DNA from: Verrucomicrobiota bacterium
GTDB lineage: Bacteria; Verrucomicrobiota; Verrucomicrobiia; Chthoniobacterales; UBA6821
Assembly: GCA_008932965.1 (NCBI GenBank)
Contig: WBXG01000062.1
Location: 1-9,701 of the forward strand
Direction of reading: 5' to 3'
Length of the DNA stretch: 9,701 nt
The translations under genes and the position numbers were made by a program. Numbering within the stretch: the stretch's first letter is position 1; each line of letters starts with the position of its first letter. The notes beneath the pieces are model-generated. The model worked only from the letters and a program-made list of their open reading frames with translations, did not search any database and was not told the origin of the DNA. Positions 702 to 9,701 of this stretch are shown piece after piece.

Positions 702-727
702 CGATCAGTATGAAATATGCAGGTTAA
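702..727 (+). repeat. Solo arm of the palindromic repeat family (CGATCAGTATGAAATATGCAGG + TTAA), tip pointing toward gspE
   Basis: Differs at one position from the arm at 4301-4326 (CGATCAGTATGAAATATGCGGG+TTAA). No partner arm or element core is detectable to its left. Confidence 0.75.
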
Positions 728-2671: not shown

Positions 2672-4264
2672 ATGGAAACAGAACATCTTAATACGCGTGC
2701 AGCAGGTATTGTTGCTGGGGCTGTGATGCTCAGTCGCTTGCTTGGTCTGGTGCGCGAACTCATTTTTGCAGGACTCTTTGGTGCAGGGCGCGGGATGGAT
2801 GCTTTTATTACTGCATTTCGAGCTCCCAACTTGCTACGAGATCTTTTTGCCGAGGGGGCTTTGTCAACGGCCTTTGTCACTGTTTTTTCTCAGGAAATTG
2901 CAAAACATGGTGATGTAGCAGCCTGGAAATTGGCTTCCAAGATGATCACCCTAACGACTCTGTTTATGAGTCTCATCACGCTGCTTGGGATTTTTTTTGC
3001 ACCACAGCTTATTGCAATTCTTGCTCCTGGTTTTGCTCCAGAAAAAGCAGAACTCACTATTTTTCTAACTAAGGTGATGTATCCCTTTATTTTGCTCGTC
3101 TCACTTGCCGCTCTGGTTATGGGGATGCTCAATGCAAAAAATATTTTTACTGCACCAGCCCTTGCCTCGAGTTTTTTTAATTTGGGATCGATTATTGGAG
3201 GTGTTGCCTTTGGTTGGTATTGTGATCCTCACTTTGGAGAGCGAGCCTTAACTGGGTTAGCTCTTGGAACCTTGCTTGGAGGGTTGCTGCAGTTGATAGT
3301 ACAATTTCCCAGTTTATCCCAAGCTGGGTTTCGTCTGGTTCTTGATTTTCAATGGCGTGATCCAGGAGTAAAACAGGTTCTCCTTCTAATGTTACCTGCA
3401 GTGATTGCTGCAAGTGCTGTTCAGATTAATGTGATGGTCAATAGTATTTTTGCCTCCTACCTCGGAGATGGTCCTGTAAGCTGGCTCTCGTATGCCTTTC
3501 GTCTCATGCAATTACCCCTTGGTGTTTTCGGCGTAGCTATTGCAACAGTAACCTTACCCCTCGTTTCAAGGATTGCTGCCCTAGGGGATTTGAGCAAATT
3601 TCGATCCACTCTTGCCCGTGCCTTGCGACTGGCCCTTTTTTTAACTCTTCCCTCAGCTGTGGGACTCATGATTTTAGCACAGCCTATTATTGCTCTTATC
3701 TATGAGCGTGGAAAATTTCATCCCCACGACACAGTACAAACCGCTTCAGCACTTCAATTCTATGCCATAGGACTTGTTTCTTATTCCTGTATTAAAGTTC
3801 TTTCGCCTGCCTTCTATGCTTTGAATCATCGTTGGACCCCAATGATGGTCAGTTTTCTCTCGATCGCACTGAATTTATTATTTAATTGGATTTTTATTTT
3901 TGAGCTCAAGATGGGGCATCGAGGCTTAGCTCTTTCGACAGCATTATCGGCCACTCTTAATTTTGGACTGCTCTATTTTTTTATGGTCCGTTTTGCAGGA
4001 GCACTTCACTTTCGCGAGTTGTTATCGACGTTTTGGCGTTGTGGGATTGCAACCCTTCCAATGATAGCACTCGTTGCCTTCTCCTCCCATTGGCTTGAAC
4101 ATCTTCATGGAATGCACCTCATCACTAGGGTAGGTGGTTTACTCCTCATCATTGCTCTTGCAAGCGGGCTTTTTATAGCAGGATGTATCTTTTTGAAAGT
4201 AAAGGAGACCTCGGATTTTTTGGTGATTTTAGAACGACGCTGGAATCGTGTGCGTGGCAGTTAG
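2672..4264 (+). CDS. murJ: Lipid II flippase MurJ (MviN family, MOP superfamily)
   Basis: 530-aa polytopic membrane ORF. The N-terminus is characteristic of MurJ: AGIVAGAVMLSRLLGLVRELIFAGLFGAGRGMDAFITAFRAPNLLRDLFAEGALSTAFVTVFS. Later LPLVS and FYA motifs and about 14 hydrophobic segments also fit. It starts 19 nt after the gspE stop, so co-transcription is likely. Confidence 0.93.
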   Translation: METEHLNTRAAGIVAGAVMLSRLLGLVRELIFAGLFGAGRGMDAFITAFRAPNLLRDLFAEGALSTAFVTVFSQEIAKHGDVAAWKLASKMITLTTLFMSLITLLGIFFAPQLIAILAPGFAPEKAELTIFLTKVMYPFILLVSLAALVMGMLNAKNIFTAPALASSFFNLGSIIGGVAFGWYCDPHFGERALTGLALGTLLGGLLQLIVQFPSLSQAGFRLVLDFQWRDPGVKQVLLLMLPAVIAASAVQINVMVNSIFASYLGDGPVSWLSYAFRLMQLPLGVFGVAIATVTLPLVSRIAALGDLSKFRSTLARALRLALFLTLPSAVGLMILAQPIIALIYERGKFHPHDTVQTASALQFYAIGLVSYSCIKVLSPAFYALNHRWTPMMVSFLSIALNLLFNWIFIFELKMGHRGLALSTALSATLNFGLLYFFMVRFAGALHFRELLSTFWRCGIATLPMIALVAFSSHWLEHLHGMHLITRVGGLLLIIALASGLFIAGCIFLKVKETSDFLVILERRWNRVRGS

Positions 4265-4326
4265 AGTGGATATTTCAAACTGATCGCGACTTTTTCATCA
4301 CGATCAGTATGAAATATGCGGGTTAA
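4261..4326. repeat. Minimal (core-less) copy of the palindromic element: 22-nt arm, 14-nt loop, 22-nt arm; possible bidirectional terminator hairpin
   Basis: The left arm is 4265-4286 (AGTGGATATTTCAAACTGATCG), the loop is 4287-4300, and the right arm is 4301-4322 (CGATCAGTATGAAATATGCGGG). The inner 17 nt of the arms pair with one mismatch. The flanks are TTAG (4261-4264) and TTAA (4323-4326). It lies between the convergent murJ and entericidin genes. No U-tract follows on either strand, so terminator function is not established. Confidence 0.7.
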
Positions 4327-4481
4327 TGATTGCTCATCGACCTGCCGACTGCATTAGCCCCAGCAGCAACATCAGAACCGACGGTGCTGACATCACGACC
4401 CATGCCGCTAATAGTGTTACATCCAGTGATCCCAACAAGTGTGATAACAATCATAGATAATGAGAGAATTAGTTTTTTCAT
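4323..4481 (-). CDS. ecnB: Entericidin A/B-family small lipoprotein (52 aa)
   Basis: Own translation of the minus strand: MKKLILSLSMIVITLVGITGCNTISGMGRDVSTVGSDVAAGANAVGRSMSNH*. It has a lipobox ITG|C. The mature part CNT..G.G.D....G......A matches the pattern I recall for E. coli entericidin B (...[25 protein letters not shown]...). GGGG lies 4 nt upstream of the ATG. It is too short for the supplied ORF track. The A versus B assignment is arbitrary. Confidence 0.8.
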   Translation of the reverse strand: MKKLILSLSMIVITLVGITGCNTISGMGRDVSTVGSDVAAGANAVGRSMSNH

Positions 4482-4536
4482 AGGCCCCGTTGATGCCAAA
4501 ATTGAGATGGTTTGGCTACTTTTTTTTCTAAAAAAG

Positions 4537-4720
4537 TTAACCCGGATGTTTCATACTGATCGTGACGAGGAGGCCGCGAAGGCTGATGGGGTAAGGCAGG
4601 CGAGCATTTTGATGTAGGGCTGTATGTGTACATACTGCCCAAATCAAAATGGGAGTCTAACGCAGCATCCATCTGACTTCCCGGCTTCCGTAGTAGATCG
4701 GTAGGAAATATGCGGGTTAA
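4537..4720 (-). mobile_element. Full-length 176-bp palindromic MITE-like element (4541-4716) with flanking TTAA/TTAA; non-autonomous, no transposase
   Basis: The arms are 4541-4562 (CCCGGATGTTTCATACTGATCG) and 4695-4716 (AGATCGGTAGGAAATATGCGGG), in inverted orientation. TTAA lies at 4537-4540 and 4717-4720. The reverse complement aligns without gaps to 8437-8612 at about 125/176 identities (hand count). Strand is given relative to the copy at 8433-8616. Confidence 0.8.
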
Positions 4721-4742
4721 CCCGAATATTTCATGCTAATCA
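4721..4742 (-). repeat. Additional left-type arm abutting the TTAA of the preceding element (GGGTTAACCC junction); possibly the start of a decayed, internally deleted copy extending to about 4822
   Basis: CCCGAATATTTCATGCTAATCA matches the arm at 8437-8458 (CTAAGATATTTCATGCTCATCT) at 16/22 positions. Downstream there is patchy similarity to the element core (CAACTCCT, TGAGC, TGCATG, CTCCTGC in the same order). A weak right-arm-like GATGATGAAGAGG precedes CTAG at 4823-4826. Confidence 0.6.
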
Positions 4743-4835
4743 TACCAACTCCTCAAAATGAGCTTGCATGTCATGATCTCCTGCAATTCCTCAATTTAGG
4801 ATGATGAAGAGGCTTCTTTAGGCTAGGGTAATAAT

Positions 4836-5642
4836 ATGCATCAACCACAGATTATTGGTATTGTTCTTGTCCGTAATGAAGAATCTTATGTGGAGCAGGC
4901 CATCCTTAATATTCTCTCTTTTTGTGATCGTTTGCTACTCGTAGATCATGAATCTTTAGACGGAACGCTTCCTATTTTACTCTCTCTTCAAAGCAAGCAT
5001 CCTGAAAAAATAAGCGTTCACTCGATTCATCACCCTCGAGAATCTCATGAACTTATCAAACCGTATGTTGGAACAGAAACATGGATTTTTGGTGTTGATG
5101 GAGATGAGATTTATGATCCTGAGGGGCTTCTTCATTTTCGAAAGAGACTTTTATCAGGGGAGTTTGACACTGAGTGGATGCTCTTAGGAAATGTTCTTCA
5201 TGTGGAAGAGCTCGATCCTAGAACAGCCACTGGCTATATGGCTCCTCCAAGTCGTAGTATTACAAAACTCTATAATTTTTCAGCGATCGAATCCTGGGAT
5301 GGAAATACGGGAGAGCGCCTGCATGGTGGGGAACTCCACTTTCGTAGCGGATTCCACGACCAAAAAAAAAGAAAACTCTTTGAGGAATCAAGATGGGAGG
5401 AGGCTTCCCTAAGGTGTCTTCATCTCTGTTTTATTCCACGAAGCCCTCACATAGGAGCAACAGTGCGCAAGAATATTGTAGAGACGTATGGTGGAGGAAT
5501 TACTACCATCATCAAAAATCAACTCATCACTATGATAAGGGGTTTTTTAGGAACATCAGAACATTCTTCTTGGAAGCAAAAACATTATGCTCGCGGCCAG
5601 AGAGTCTCGGTGAGATCTTCTCCTTTTTTTAAAAACCCATGA
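4836..5642 (+). CDS. Family 2 (GT-A fold) glycosyltransferase-like protein
   Basis: 268-aa ORF. The N-terminus IIGIVLVRNEESYVEQAILNILSFCDRLLLVDHESLDGT is typical of GT2 / Glyco_tranf_2_4-type enzymes. A DxD-like motif GVDGDE is present. AGGG lies 8 nt upstream of the ATG. The stop overlaps the next start (ATGA at 5639-5642). Confidence 0.75.
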   Translation: MHQPQIIGIVLVRNEESYVEQAILNILSFCDRLLLVDHESLDGTLPILLSLQSKHPEKISVHSIHHPRESHELIKPYVGTETWIFGVDGDEIYDPEGLLHFRKRLLSGEFDTEWMLLGNVLHVEELDPRTATGYMAPPSRSITKLYNFSAIESWDGNTGERLHGGELHFRSGFHDQKKRKLFEESRWEEASLRCLHLCFIPRSPHIGATVRKNIVETYGGGITTIIKNQLITMIRGFLGTSEHSSWKQKHYARGQRVSVRSSPFFKNP

Positions 5643-8411: not shown

Positions 8412-9701
8412 ATGAAGAAAAACCAAGCTCTTCTAGCTAAGATATTTCATGCTCATCTAATACTGCAACCGGGAAGCCAGTTGGATACAGCATCAAACTC
8501 CTATTGTGACTTGAGCCGTTTGGATGCATGCAGCTCTGCTTCTAAATACTCGCAAGCCAGGTCCTATCAGCCTTCGAAGTTTCCTCGTTACTATCAGTAT
8601 GAAATACACTGGCTAGTGCTGCTTATTATCGTGATCAGTCAATTGTTGGTGTCACATGTCATTGCACAATCATCAACTAATAATCTATACGTTGGTAGTA
8701 ATAGCTCTGGCCAGACGACCACTTTCACAAGTGGTACTAATTCCTACAACAACACCTATGTTGGTTATGCAAGTGGTGCTTCCAATAATAGCCTGAGTAT
8801 TATTAATGCAGGAACCCAACTTACAAATAGTTCATCCCTCATTATTGGCGTTGAGGGAGCAAATAATTCAATGACGATCTCCAGTGGTGGAAGAGTTGTC
8901 AATAATAGTGGAGTGATTGGATCTAGTAACTCTTCTTCTAACAACTCCGTTTTTGTGACTGGCACTGGATCCGTTTGGACTAACAGTGGCAATCTCACTA
9001 TTGGTCTTACTGGAGCAAATAATACTCTCACTATTGCAAATCGAGCTACGGTATATGCACGCAGTGGAGTCATTATAGGTAGCAATGGGATTCTCAAAGG
9101 AAATGGCACTCTTAATGCCTCAGTAACCAATAATGGACTTCTAGCTCCTGGATATCCTACAGGGAAATTAACCATTAATGGGAATGTCGCACAAAGCTCG
9201 AGTGGGACCCTCCAAATCAAAGTGGTAAATTCAAACGCTTACAGTAAACTTCAAGTCAATGGTAGTGTCACTCTTGCCGGCACCTTAGAAATCACCCCTA
9301 TTGAAAGTTCACTAAGCTATGGAGAGAAATTGACTTTTCTAAATTCATCAGGGCCGATTAAAGGAAGCTTCAATACCGTTCAAGTAGATGAGCCCTATTG
9401 CCGTGGCCGAGTTCAGATCATTGGAGACCCACAAGCCATAGTCACCATTGCTCCTACAAGCTACACATATTTAGCCCAGAATCAAAATCAAACCAATGTG
9501 GCCACTGCTCTTGATAGCTTCATCCCAGCAATTAGTGGGGATGAGCTTCTCGTTGCAACTGGCCTTGATTCTCTCACCGCTGCACAATATCCAGCAGCCT
9601 TGAATGCCATCATGCCCATCCTTTACCAATCCCTCTCTACGATTGCTTTCAATATCGACAATGCCCAGAATCAAGAACTCATTCAGCGCCTCTGGGGAGT
9701 C
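8412..9701 (+). CDS. Autotransporter (type Va) adhesin-like protein, first 430 codons (3' end beyond the window), carrying a 60-codon in-frame element insertion in its signal peptide
   Basis: Own translation, open from ATG 8412 to 9701 in frame. The N/S/T-rich passenger has strand-loop-strand type repeats (NNSVFVTGTGSVWTNSGNLTIGLTGANNTLTIANRATV). A typical pre-barrel segment follows (NNGLLAPGYPTGKLTINGNVAQSSSGTLQIKV...LQVNGSVTLAGTLEI). Then comes the junction/start of the autotransporter beta-domain (NQTNVATALDSFIPAISGDELLVATGLDSLTAAQYPAALNAIMPILYQSL). It is not in the ORF track because it is open-ended. Whether translation through the insert yields an exported protein is unknown. Confidence 0.85.
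   Translation, partial: MKKNQALLAKIFHAHLILQPGSQLDTASNSYCDLSRLDACSSASKYSQARSYQPSKFPRYYQYEIHWLVLLIIVISQLLVSHVIAQSSTNNLYVGSNSSGQTTTFTSGTNSYNNTYVGYASGASNNSLSIINAGTQLTNSSSLIIGVEGANNSMTISSGGRVVNNSGVIGSSNSSSNNSVFVTGTGSVWTNSGNLTIGLTGANNTLTIANRATVYARSGVIIGSNGILKGNGTLNASVTNNGLLAPGYPTGKLTINGNVAQSSSGTLQIKVVNSNAYSKLQVNGSVTLAGTLEITPIESSLSYGEKLTFLNSSGPIKGSFNTVQVDEPYCRGRVQIIGDPQAIVTIAPTSYTYLAQNQNQTNVATALDSFIPAISGDELLVATGLDSLTAAQYPAALNAIMPILYQSLSTIAFNIDNAQNQELIQRLWGV
8433..8616 (+). mobile_element. Full-length 176-bp palindromic MITE-like element (8437-8612) with flanking CTAG/CTAG, inserted inside the autotransporter coding region
   Basis: The arms are 8437-8458 (CTAAGATATTTCATGCTCATCT) and 8591-8612 (CTATCAGTATGAAATACACTGG). 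CTAG lies at 8433-8436 and 8613-8616. It aligns without gaps and at equal length with the reverse complement of 4541-4716. Confidence 0.8.

What the first reader, a model, noticed from the sequence alone, without database searches (positions are those of the whole stretch)
4537..4720. Apparently undescribed 176-bp MITE-like family with matching 4-bp flanks (TTAA, CTAG)
Two full copies (4541-4716 and 8437-8612, opposite orientations) have identical length. They align end to end without gaps at about 125/176 positions (hand count). Both have ~22-nt terminal inverted arms. Each copy is flanked by the same tetranucleotide on both sides, but the tetranucleotide differs between copies: TTAA/TTAA versus CTAG/CTAG. 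That is the signature of a target-site duplication rather than part of the element. Both flanks fit YTAR, the 4-bp target preference known for IS5-group transposases. A minimal TA duplication, as in IS630/Tc1-mariner-driven MITEs, cannot be excluded because the excision product would be identical. The window has no transposase gene, so the elements are non-autonomous. At least 8 arm copies occur in under 10 kb, and outside the autotransporter insertion all of them lie in the intergenic regions.
Basis: partly seen in the sequence, partly recalled or inferred. Interest (0 to 1): 0.75.

Follow-up and report, generated by a model that had tools for sequence, protein, structure and literature searches.

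The report
IS1380-derived miniature transposon family (MITE)
The two 176-base repeats are copies of an abundant, apparently undescribed miniature transposon of uncultured Verrucomicrobia that borrows the ends of IS1380-type insertion sequences, duplicates a 4-base YTAR site when it lands, and adds exactly 60 codons, so it persists even inside essential genes.

Summary
Copies at 4541-4716 (+) and 8437-8612 (-) are each 176 bp and match at 125/176 positions without gaps. They are flanked by TTAA/TTAA and CTAG/CTAG. There are 8 terminal arms in the window.

It is a real, recently mobile MITE. Near-identical strains differ by a third copy, and the empty site has one CTAG where the filled site has CTAG-176 bp-CTAG. 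About 200 copies occur in roughly 550 kb from four Chthoniobacterales/"Spartobacteria" MAGs.

The duplication is 4 bp at YTAR, not TA. 88% of flanks are YTAR. Left and right outer bases co-vary (p about 1e-7). Non-palindromic direct pairs exist, and near-identical copies carry different 4-mers.

The IS5/IS630 attribution is not supported. Elements with the same 16-18-nt termini and 4-bp direct repeats (CTAG, TTAG, CTAA) encode IS1380-family transposases (NF033539). No autonomous copy was found in the MITE-bearing lineage.

The added length, 176+4 = 180 bp, is 60 codons, and one frame per orientation is open. Copies sit in frame in pheT, glnD and the window's autotransporter signal peptide, as Rickettsia RPEs do. 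Others sit exactly on stop codons.

This is a new member of a known kind and is moderately interesting.

The parts
4541..4716 (+). Copy A: a full 176-bp MITE that forms a whole-length hairpin.
   Evidence: nhmmer E = 2e-53. DNA fold -43.2 kcal/mol, z = -6.96.
4537..4540 (.). TTAA, left target-site duplication of copy A.
4717..4720 (.). TTAA, right target-site duplication of copy A. It is shared with the adjacent stub, which marks re-use of a regenerated target.
   Evidence: 19/73 family copies abut another terminus across the 4-mer.
4721..4742 (+). Stub: only the left terminus of a second, truncated element (CCCGAATATTTCATGCTAATCA).
   Evidence: (D2).
8437..8612 (-). Copy B: a full 176-bp MITE, diverged, read through in frame inside the autotransporter ORF.
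   Evidence: nhmmer E = 5e-38. No hairpin (z = +0.36).
8433..8436 (.). CTAG, target-site duplication of copy B (upstream copy).
8613..8616 (.). CTAG, target-site duplication of copy B (downstream copy).
8412..9701 (+). Autotransporter ORF (it runs off the window) whose signal peptide is split by copy B. Removing 180 bp restores MKKNQALLVLLIIVISQLLVSHVIAQS.
   Evidence: In L005 the gene call of 864 aa has Pfam Autotransporter.
4265..4322 (+). 58-bp mini element: two termini with a 14-nt core. It is flanked by TTAG (4261-4264) and TTAA (4323-4326).
   Evidence: The same 58-bp form occurs at L048:7391-7448.
4261..4264 (+). TTAG flank of the mini element. Its TAG (4262-4264) is the MurJ stop codon.
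4323..4326 (-). TTAA flank of the mini element. On the minus strand it supplies the TAA stop of the 52-aa lipoprotein-like ORF (4323-4481).
702..727 (-). Solo right-type terminus plus TTAA (CGATCAGTATGAAATATGCAGG|TTAA), a remnant of a decayed copy upstream of the T2SS-E gene.
   Evidence: (D1).

Best explanation
The 176-bp units are copies of a miniature inverted-repeat transposable element (MITE) family. Its 18-22-nt termini (CCCG[G/C]ATATTTCATACTGATCG) are the terminal inverted repeats of a clade of IS1380-family insertion sequences. Shown: the element encodes no transposase. It inserts at YTAR tetranucleotides (TTAA > CTAG > CTAA, TTAG) and duplicates all four bases. It has moved recently, because the site is filled in some strains and empty in others. 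It is present in hundreds of copies in a group of uncultured Verrucomicrobiota (Chthoniobacterales-type MAGs). Full-length elements with the same termini and 4-bp direct repeats encode IS1380-family DDE transposases. Inferred: such a transposase, supplied in trans, binds the termini and moves the MITE. Whether the move is cut-and-paste or copy-and-paste is not known for this family. Copies persist for three reasons. (i) Element plus duplication adds 180 bp, which is 60 codons, and one frame per orientation is stop-free, so one insertion phase in three is read through. (ii) YTAR contains TAA or TAG, so landing on a stop codon regenerates the stop on both sides. (iii) The regenerated YTAR at each end is itself a target, which produces tandem arrays.
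For: Empty versus filled site: L001 and L003 have ...tttacCTAGgtaga..., while L002 and L004 have CTAG[176 bp]CTAG in otherwise 98-99% identical DNA. Flanks: 128 of 146 flanks are YTAR and 44/73 copies have identical 4-mers. There are 23 TTAA, 12 CTAG, 2 TTAG/TTAG and 1 CTAA/CTAA pairs, and no IR-type pairs. Left and right outer bases co-vary (p = 4e-7 and 4e-8), and 32/58 pairs of >=90%-identical copies carry different 4-mers. Abundance and range: about 208 HMM hits in about 550 kb from 4 MAGs and none in the chance-hit loci. Parent family: L102:1813-3888 is 2076 bp with CTAG/CTAG flanks, L117:630-2363 is 1734 bp with TTAG/TTAG flanks, and L104 is cut by the contig end. All three carry the same 16-18-nt termini around genes scoring 338-378 bits on NF033539 'IS1380 family transposase' (cut-off 180) and E about 1e-130 on PF13701. 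L134:2394-4026 (CTAA/CTAA) was found independently through protein homology. These transposases are only 40-61% identical to each other, yet they share the terminus. Coding tolerance: frame 2 is open in 31(+)/40(-) of 78 copies against 1-8 for the other frames, 8 copies are internal to long ORFs and 10 are at 5' ends. L038:3796-3971 lies within a 64-aa insertion in PheT, between residues that align to 183 and 187 of PDB 7n8y_B. Another copy lies in GlnD. Window copy B splits a signal peptide. Stop-codon sites account for 13/73 copies against 3.2% of all YTAR sites.
Against: No IS1380 gene was found in about 0.8 Mb of MITE-bearing loci. The transposase-bearing elements come from 58-65% GC contigs of other, unidentified organisms, so the actual mobilising enzyme in this lineage is not identified. 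Similarity between MITE and IS does not extend beyond about 18-20 nt. One IS copy (L133) has CTAA...TTAG flanks, which fits an inverted rather than a direct arrangement. 29/73 copies have non-identical flanks, which I attribute to decay or recombination. Transposition itself was not observed.
Confidence: 0.85

Rival explanations
1. The MITE is driven by an IS5-group transposase, which was the first reader's preferred reading because IS5 also makes 4-bp YTAR duplications.
For: The target and duplication (YTAR, 4 bp) fit what is known for IS5 (IS5 target from general knowledge).
Against: Every full-length element recovered with these termini encodes an IS1380-family transposase, not an IS5-type one. 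The termini begin 5'-CCC, whereas IS5-family ends begin with G (ISfinder family description, from memory). No IS5-like ORF lies next to any solo terminus examined.
Confidence: 0.04
2. The MITE is of IS630/Tc1-mariner type with a 2-bp TA duplication, and the outer bases are part of the inverted repeat.
For: TTAA and CTAG are palindromes, so for those sites a TA duplication plus one more IR base gives the same sequence. One IS copy has CTAA...TTAG flanks.
Against: The genomic outer base on the left co-varies with the base on the right (p about 1e-7). TTAG/TTAG (MITEs and the IS in L117) and CTAA/CTAA (a MITE and the IS in L134) are direct, not inverted. Near-identical copies carry different 4-mers. 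The parent transposase is not of the IS630 type.
Confidence: 0.02
3. The unit is primarily a structured RNA or regulatory element (terminator, sRNA or riboswitch-like) that happens to be repeated, rather than mobile DNA.
For: The consensus and copy A fold into a 176-nt hairpin.
Against: There is no Rfam match in the window or in 10 further loci. RNAalifold keeps only the 13 terminal pairs across 76 copies. Left and right halves occur in mosaic combinations that break interior pairing. Copy B does not fold better than shuffles. No promoter- or terminator-like sites were found. The TSD and the empty site show insertion.
Confidence: 0.03
4. The element is exapted. The open frame is kept by selection because the 60-aa peptide is useful as an RPE-like protein module, so the element is partly a coding cassette and not only selfish DNA. 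This is an addition to the MITE reading rather than an alternative to it.
For: Frame 2 is open in about half of all copies, including many outside genes. In-frame copies occur in pheT, glnD and an autotransporter, and they are fixed across strains.
Against: The open frames are already present in the consensus and are mirror images of one another, so they amount to one chance event of roughly 6% per frame. Intragenic copies must be open to survive, which is a survivorship effect. No test of peptide-level constraint was done.
Confidence: 0.12

Closest known systems
IS1380 family insertion sequences (ISEcp1, IS1247, IS1380)
   Same: The MITE termini are the inverted repeats of elements that encode NF033539/PF13701 transposases. 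The ends begin with CC. The duplication is short (4 bp here; the family is described with 4-5 bp, for example IS1247 with DR 5 and IR 16/13 in PMC3281130).
   Different: The MITE is 176 bp with no gene and cannot move by itself. The strict YTAR target seen here is not something I could find described for the family. No partner IS was found in the same lineage.
Rickettsia palindromic elements (RPE)
   Same: Both are short palindromic repeats in a probably host-associated lineage with a modest GC content. Both insert in frame into unrelated housekeeping genes, have an open frame, and add a peptide that the protein tolerates (RPE behaviour as reviewed in PMC10969869; here).
   Different: The organisms belong to different phyla and no sequence relationship is implied. 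This family has clear TIRs, a clear 4-bp TSD and an identifiable parent IS family.
Eukaryotic piggyBac elements and their MITEs
   Same: Both use a TTAA-type 4-bp target and duplication, and both have termini 5'-CCC...GGG-3' (piggyBac features from general knowledge). IS1380 transposases are used as the prokaryotic outgroup of piggyBac (PMC10813416).
   Different: The transposases here match DDE_Tnp_1_4, not the piggyBac Pfam family. TTAA makes up only 45% of flanks and CTAG, CTAA and TTAG are also used. Precise excision is not shown.
Other bacterial MITEs (Correia/NEMIS, ERIC, RUP, QMITE, cyanobacterial MITEs)
   Same: The architecture is the same: TIRs, a TSD, 100-300 bp, hairpin potential, a mostly intergenic location, high copy number and nested or tandem copies.
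   Different: Those families are linked to other IS families or to none, typically with TA or longer duplications. None is reported from Verrucomicrobia.

Membership tests
MITE (non-autonomous IS derivative) | Small size with no transposase coding capacity | tested here: met
   The element is 176 bp. The ORFs that overlap it have no Pfam hit, and the window holds no transposase.
MITE (non-autonomous IS derivative) | Terminal inverted repeats | tested here: met
   Copy A has 26-nt arms that are 85% complementary. 13 terminal pairs are kept across 76 copies.
MITE (non-autonomous IS derivative) | Target-site duplication of fixed length | tested here: met
   The duplication is 4 bp. This is shown by the empty versus filled site and by the flank statistics.
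MITE (non-autonomous IS derivative) | Multi-copy and dispersed, with insertion polymorphism | tested here: met
   About 208 hits occur in about 550 kb. Copy C is present in L002 and L004 and absent in L001 and L003.
MITE (non-autonomous IS derivative) | Termini shared with an autonomous element | tested here: met
   L102, L117, L104 and L134 carry the same 16-18-nt ends around a transposase gene.
MITE (non-autonomous IS derivative) | Mobilised in trans by that transposase | not testable with these tools
   This needs a transposition assay.
IS1380 family (as parent) | Transposase of the IS1380 type between the matching termini | tested here: met
   NF033539 equivalog scores of 338-378 bits against a cut-off of 180, and PF13701 at E about 1e-130.
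IS1380 family (as parent) | Ends beginning 5'-CC and a 4-5 bp duplication (family description, ISfinder, from memory; IS1247 DR 5) | tested here: met
   The ends are CCCG... and the direct repeats are 4 bp: CTAG, TTAG and CTAA.
IS1380 family (as parent) | Autonomous copy in the same genome as the MITEs | tested here: inconclusive
   No copy was found in about 0.8 Mb of MITE-bearing loci.
IS5 group | Termini and transposase of the IS5 type | tested here: not met
   Elements with these termini encode IS1380-family enzymes. The YTAR 4-bp duplication alone is shared.
IS630/Tc1-mariner | TA dinucleotide duplication | tested here: not met
   All four bases are duplicated.
piggyBac superfamily | piggyBac-type transposase (Pfam DDE_Tnp_1_7) | tested here: not met
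   Only DDE_Tnp_1_4 and DDE_Tnp_1 matched.
piggyBac superfamily | TTAA target and duplication with CCC...GGG ends | tested here: inconclusive
   The ends are CCC...GGG, but TTAA makes up only 45% of flanks and the wider YTAR is used.
Rickettsia palindromic elements | In-frame insertion into unrelated protein genes with an open frame | tested here: met
   Shown in pheT, glnD and the autotransporter. 18-19 of 78 copies are read through. This is a resemblance in behaviour only.
Rickettsia palindromic elements | Sequence membership in the RPE families | not tested
   No RPE library was available. The phylum differs and an identified IS1380 parent makes membership implausible.
Known structured RNA (Rfam) | Match to a curated covariance model | tested here: not met
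   There was no hit in the window at E <= 1, nor in 10 loci at gathering score.

The most novel reading that the evidence does not exclude
This may be the first described MITE family derived from IS1380, the prokaryotic sister of piggyBac. It shares piggyBac's hallmarks (a TTAA-type 4-bp target and CCC...GGG ends). It is currently active in a host-associated verrucomicrobial lineage, where it acts like Rickettsia RPEs by adding 60-residue peptides in frame to essential proteins. If so, the TTAA/CCC-GGG signature would predate the prokaryote-eukaryote split of this transposase lineage, and RPE-like gene invasion would have an identifiable enzymatic cause.
Probability: 0.45. Interest if true: 0.6.

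Novelty: new member of a known kind. Interest (0 to 1): 0.5.

Why it matters
The finding gives repeat annotation for a poorly known group of Verrucomicrobia. These elements break assemblies and create spurious or extended gene calls, for example the 64-aa ORF over copy A and the autotransporter start.

It adds IS1380 to the IS families known to spawn MITEs, and it shows a clade of that family with a strict YTAR/TTAA-type target reminiscent of its eukaryotic relative piggyBac.

It offers a second, mechanistically tractable example of in-frame invasion of essential genes. Unlike Rickettsia RPEs, this family has clear ends, a target-site duplication and a candidate transposase. How such insertions arise and are tolerated therefore becomes testable.

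Tried and rejected
- Rfam: the window at E <= 1 and 10 further loci at gathering score gave only tRNAs and a chance snoRNA hit.
- Multi-copy ORFs among 699 ORFs of the MAG loci: the only multi-copy 'proteins' were translations of the MITE itself.
- ORFs next to 10 solo termini: all were housekeeping genes such as IspG, RseP, PBPs and PriA.
- tblastn of the three IS1380 transposases against all held loci: no remnants in MITE-bearing DNA.
- Low-GC candidate partner P0061 (473 aa, 43-47% GC contigs): its ends do not match.
- Viral contigs scanned with the 18-nt terminus: 12 chance matches, with no YTAR flank, no HMM hit and no transposase.
- Family-wide conserved hairpin: rejected, because only the terminal pairs are conserved and the halves are mosaic.
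- Promoter and terminator scan of 4200-4900: nothing above the shuffles.
- Apparent '97-bp' elements: these were an artefact of the arm-like central motif (GGCTGTATGTTTCATACTGCCC) pairing with a true terminus.
- Literature searches for IS1380 with MITE, TTAA or 4-bp TSD, and for Verrucomicrobia MITEs: nothing relevant.

Full report
**Observation**

Window 4541-4716 (+) and 8437-8612 (-) are both 176 bp and match at 125 of 176 positions without a gap. The first copy is flanked by TTAA on both sides and the second by CTAG on both sides.

Copy A has 26-nt terminal arms that are 85% complementary. Arms with the consensus TTAA-CCCGCATATTTCATACTGATCG occur eight times in the window.

Besides the two full copies, three shorter pieces are present:
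- a 58-bp mini element at 4265-4322;
- a stub at 4721-4742 that shares copy A's right-hand TTAA;
- a solo terminus at 702-727.

The window encodes a T2SS ATPase, MurJ, three glycosyltransferases and the start of an autotransporter, and it holds no transposase. NCBI names the identical MurJ and T2SS-E proteins as coming from a Verrucomicrobia/Verrucomicrobiota MAG.

**It is mobile DNA**

The MurJ protein was found on six near-identical contigs, 98-99% identical to the window. Two of them (L002, L004) carry a third 176-bp copy that the other two covering the site (L001, L003) lack.

The empty site reads tttacCTAGgtaga. The filled site reads tttacCTAG[CCCGGATATTTC...GAAATATCCGGG]CTAGgtaga. This is a clean insertion (or precise excision) polymorphism with a net difference of 180 bp.

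**Size and range of the family**

Most came from four Chthoniobacterales/"Spartobacteria" MAGs.

A profile built from 59 full copies finds about 208 distinct hits in about 550 kb of those loci. It finds none in the handful of chance-match loci from other phyla. Full copies are mostly 176-177 bp long.

MurJ DNA of the window is only 77% identical to that of one of these MAGs. Individual MITE copies, by contrast, are 92-96% identical across them. This indicates activity or exchange after the species diverged.

**The duplication is four bases at YTAR**

- Of 146 flanks, 45% are TTAA, 25% CTAG, 10% CTAA and 8% TTAG. There is no preference beyond the four bases.
- 44 of 73 copies have identical 4-mers at both ends.
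- Among 59 paired copies, three have non-palindromic direct repeats (TTAG/TTAG twice, CTAA/CTAA once). None has the inverted arrangement that a TA duplication plus a longer inverted repeat would give.
- The outermost base on the left predicts the corresponding base on the right (Fisher p = 4e-7 and 4e-8).
- 32 of 58 pairs of copies that are at least 90% identical carry different 4-mers, so the tetranucleotide is not part of the element.
- 19 of 73 copies abut another terminus across a shared 4-mer, as copy A does with its stub. This is expected if the regenerated site is itself a target.

**The parent family is IS1380, not IS5 or IS630**

No transposase lay in the MAG loci. I therefore scanned metagenome contigs for the terminus followed by sequence that excludes the MITE interior (pattern YTARCCNGNATATTTCATACTG-N10-HH). 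This filter passes only 4 of 116 known arms.

Among the 35 hits, three contigs carry the terminus next to a long ORF:
- L102:1813-3888 is 2076 bp with an inverted copy of the terminus at the far end and CTAG/CTAG flanks.
- L117:630-2363 is 1734 bp with TTAG/TTAG flanks.
- L104 is cut by the contig end.

Their ORFs match Pfam DDE_Tnp_1_4 at E about 1e-130. They also match the NCBIfam equivalog 'IS1380 family transposase' at 338-378 bits, against a cut-off of 180.

A profile of the three proteins finds more than 8000 relatives. Contigs of two of them were retrieved through the protein alone, not the DNA pattern. They again show the terminus:
- L134:2394-4026 is 1633 bp with CTAA/CTAA flanks.
- L133 has CCCGGATTTTTCATA ends and CTAA...TTAG flanks, the one exception to direct repeats.

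The transposases are only 40-61% identical to one another yet share the 16-18-nt end. The end is therefore a conserved feature of a deep clade.

One published member, IS1247, has DR 5 and IR 16/13 (PMC3281130).

These IS copies sit on 58-65% GC contigs, so they belong to other organisms. No IS1380 gene or remnant was found in any MITE-bearing DNA I hold. The enzyme acting in this lineage is therefore inferred, not identified.

**How copies are tolerated**

The element plus its duplication adds 180 bp. The consensus has exactly one stop-free frame in each orientation. That frame is open in 31 and 40 of 78 copies, against 1-8 for the other frames.

Eight copies are internal to long ORFs and ten lie at their 5' ends. 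Examples:
- L038:3796-3971 lies in pheT. The protein aligns to PDB 7n8y_B over residues 6-187 and 252-853, with 64 extra residues where the reference has three.
- Another copy lies in glnD.
- In the window, copy B is read through from ATG 8412. Removing it restores a textbook signal peptide, MKKNQALLVLLIIVISQLLVSHVIAQS. Whether the interrupted signal still functions is unknown.

A second route is the stop codon, because YTAR contains TAA or TAG. In 13 of 73 copies the flanking TAR is the stop of an ORF of at least 100 codons, against 3.2% of all YTAR sites. The window's mini element sits exactly between the TAG of MurJ and the TAA of a convergent 52-aa lipoprotein-like ORF, one in each flank.

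**Structure**

The consensus and copy A fold as one long hairpin (copy A: z = -6.96). Copy B does not (z = +0.36).

Across 76 copies only the terminal pairs are conserved. Left and right halves fall into subtypes that occur in mosaic combinations joined at a conserved centre, GGCTGTATG(T)GTACATACTGCCC. In one subtype this centre resembles a terminus at 14 of 18 positions.

I read this as recombination among copies, not as a constrained RNA. There is no Rfam match and no promoter or terminator signal.

**Comparison with known elements, and verdict**

By architecture this is an ordinary bacterial MITE. Three things are new.
- The host group is new: no MITE is reported from Verrucomicrobia in the library searched.
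- The parent family is new: no paper links IS1380 to a MITE.
- It combines a strict TTAA-type target and CCC...GGG ends, which recall piggyBac. IS1380 serves as piggyBac's prokaryotic outgroup (PMC10813416).

The in-frame behaviour is known from Rickettsia RPEs and other MITEs (PMC10969869).

I file it as a new member of a known kind. The attribution to an IS5- or IS630-type transposase is replaced by IS1380.

Noticed in passing
L092:6663-6931, L032:3111-3385, L038:6174-6445, L093:123-379 and about 20 other loci: Variants of the MITE that are 257-295 bp long carry a nested module of about 90 bp (GTTGACTCGCTTGGCGAAGCTCG...GGCAGTCTCC...GGCCGCCGGTGGTACC). It occurs in both orientations and at two or more internal positions. 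It has no obvious inverted ends and no Rfam match, and 36 of 41 BLAST hits lie in or next to MITE copies. What moves it is unexplained.
   Followed up: partly
window 4323-4481 (-): A 52-aa ORF, MKKLILSLSMIVITLVGITGCNTISGMG..., has a lipobox-like LVGITGC and resembles entericidin-type small lipoproteins (from memory). It was called as a gene in L001 and L005. Its stop codon lies in the TTAA flank of the mini element.
   Followed up: partly
L001:3854-4170 versus L002:3996-4171 (upstream of the window region): A 141-bp (47-codon) tandem repeat in a pseudopilin-like T2SS gene differs in copy number between strains that are otherwise 98-99% identical.
   Followed up: partly
window 8838-9034; L002:16166-16663; L005:8401-8586: The autotransporter passenger region contains 156-bp tandem repeats (about 85% identical) whose number differs between strains (D5, 12, 15).
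   Followed up: no
L096, L109, L122, L124 (about 208 bp); L110 and L128 (about 266 bp); L094 and L113: Other short repeat families in unrelated metagenome contigs start with the same YTAR-CCCGNATATTTCATACTG terminus but have different interiors. This suggests that this IS1380 clade has spawned several independent MITE families.
   Followed up: partly
L002:3456-3631 versus L020:4347-4522, L057:2442-2617 and L038:3796-3971: MITE copies are 95-96% identical between MAGs whose MurJ DNA is about 77% identical. This points to recent activity or horizontal spread of the element among species.
   Followed up: partly
L133:166-1793: An IS1380-family element (protein P0059) with ends CCCGGATTTTTCATA has flanks CTAA...TTAG. 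This is an inverted rather than direct arrangement and is the only such case seen. It may result from recombination between two copies.
   Followed up: no
MurJ cluster members P0123, P0124 and P0127 (547 aa) versus the window MurJ (530 aa): Some strains have a MurJ that is 17 residues longer. This would be consistent with loss of the TAG in the TTAG flank and read-through into the mini element, but it was not checked.
   Followed up: no
L046:3623-3635, L050:3923-3935, L027:3758-3770, L015:6428-6440: Several solo stubs end after the same 13 nt (YTAA-CCCGNATATTTCA) and are followed by unrelated sequence. The recurrent truncation point is unexplained.
   Followed up: no
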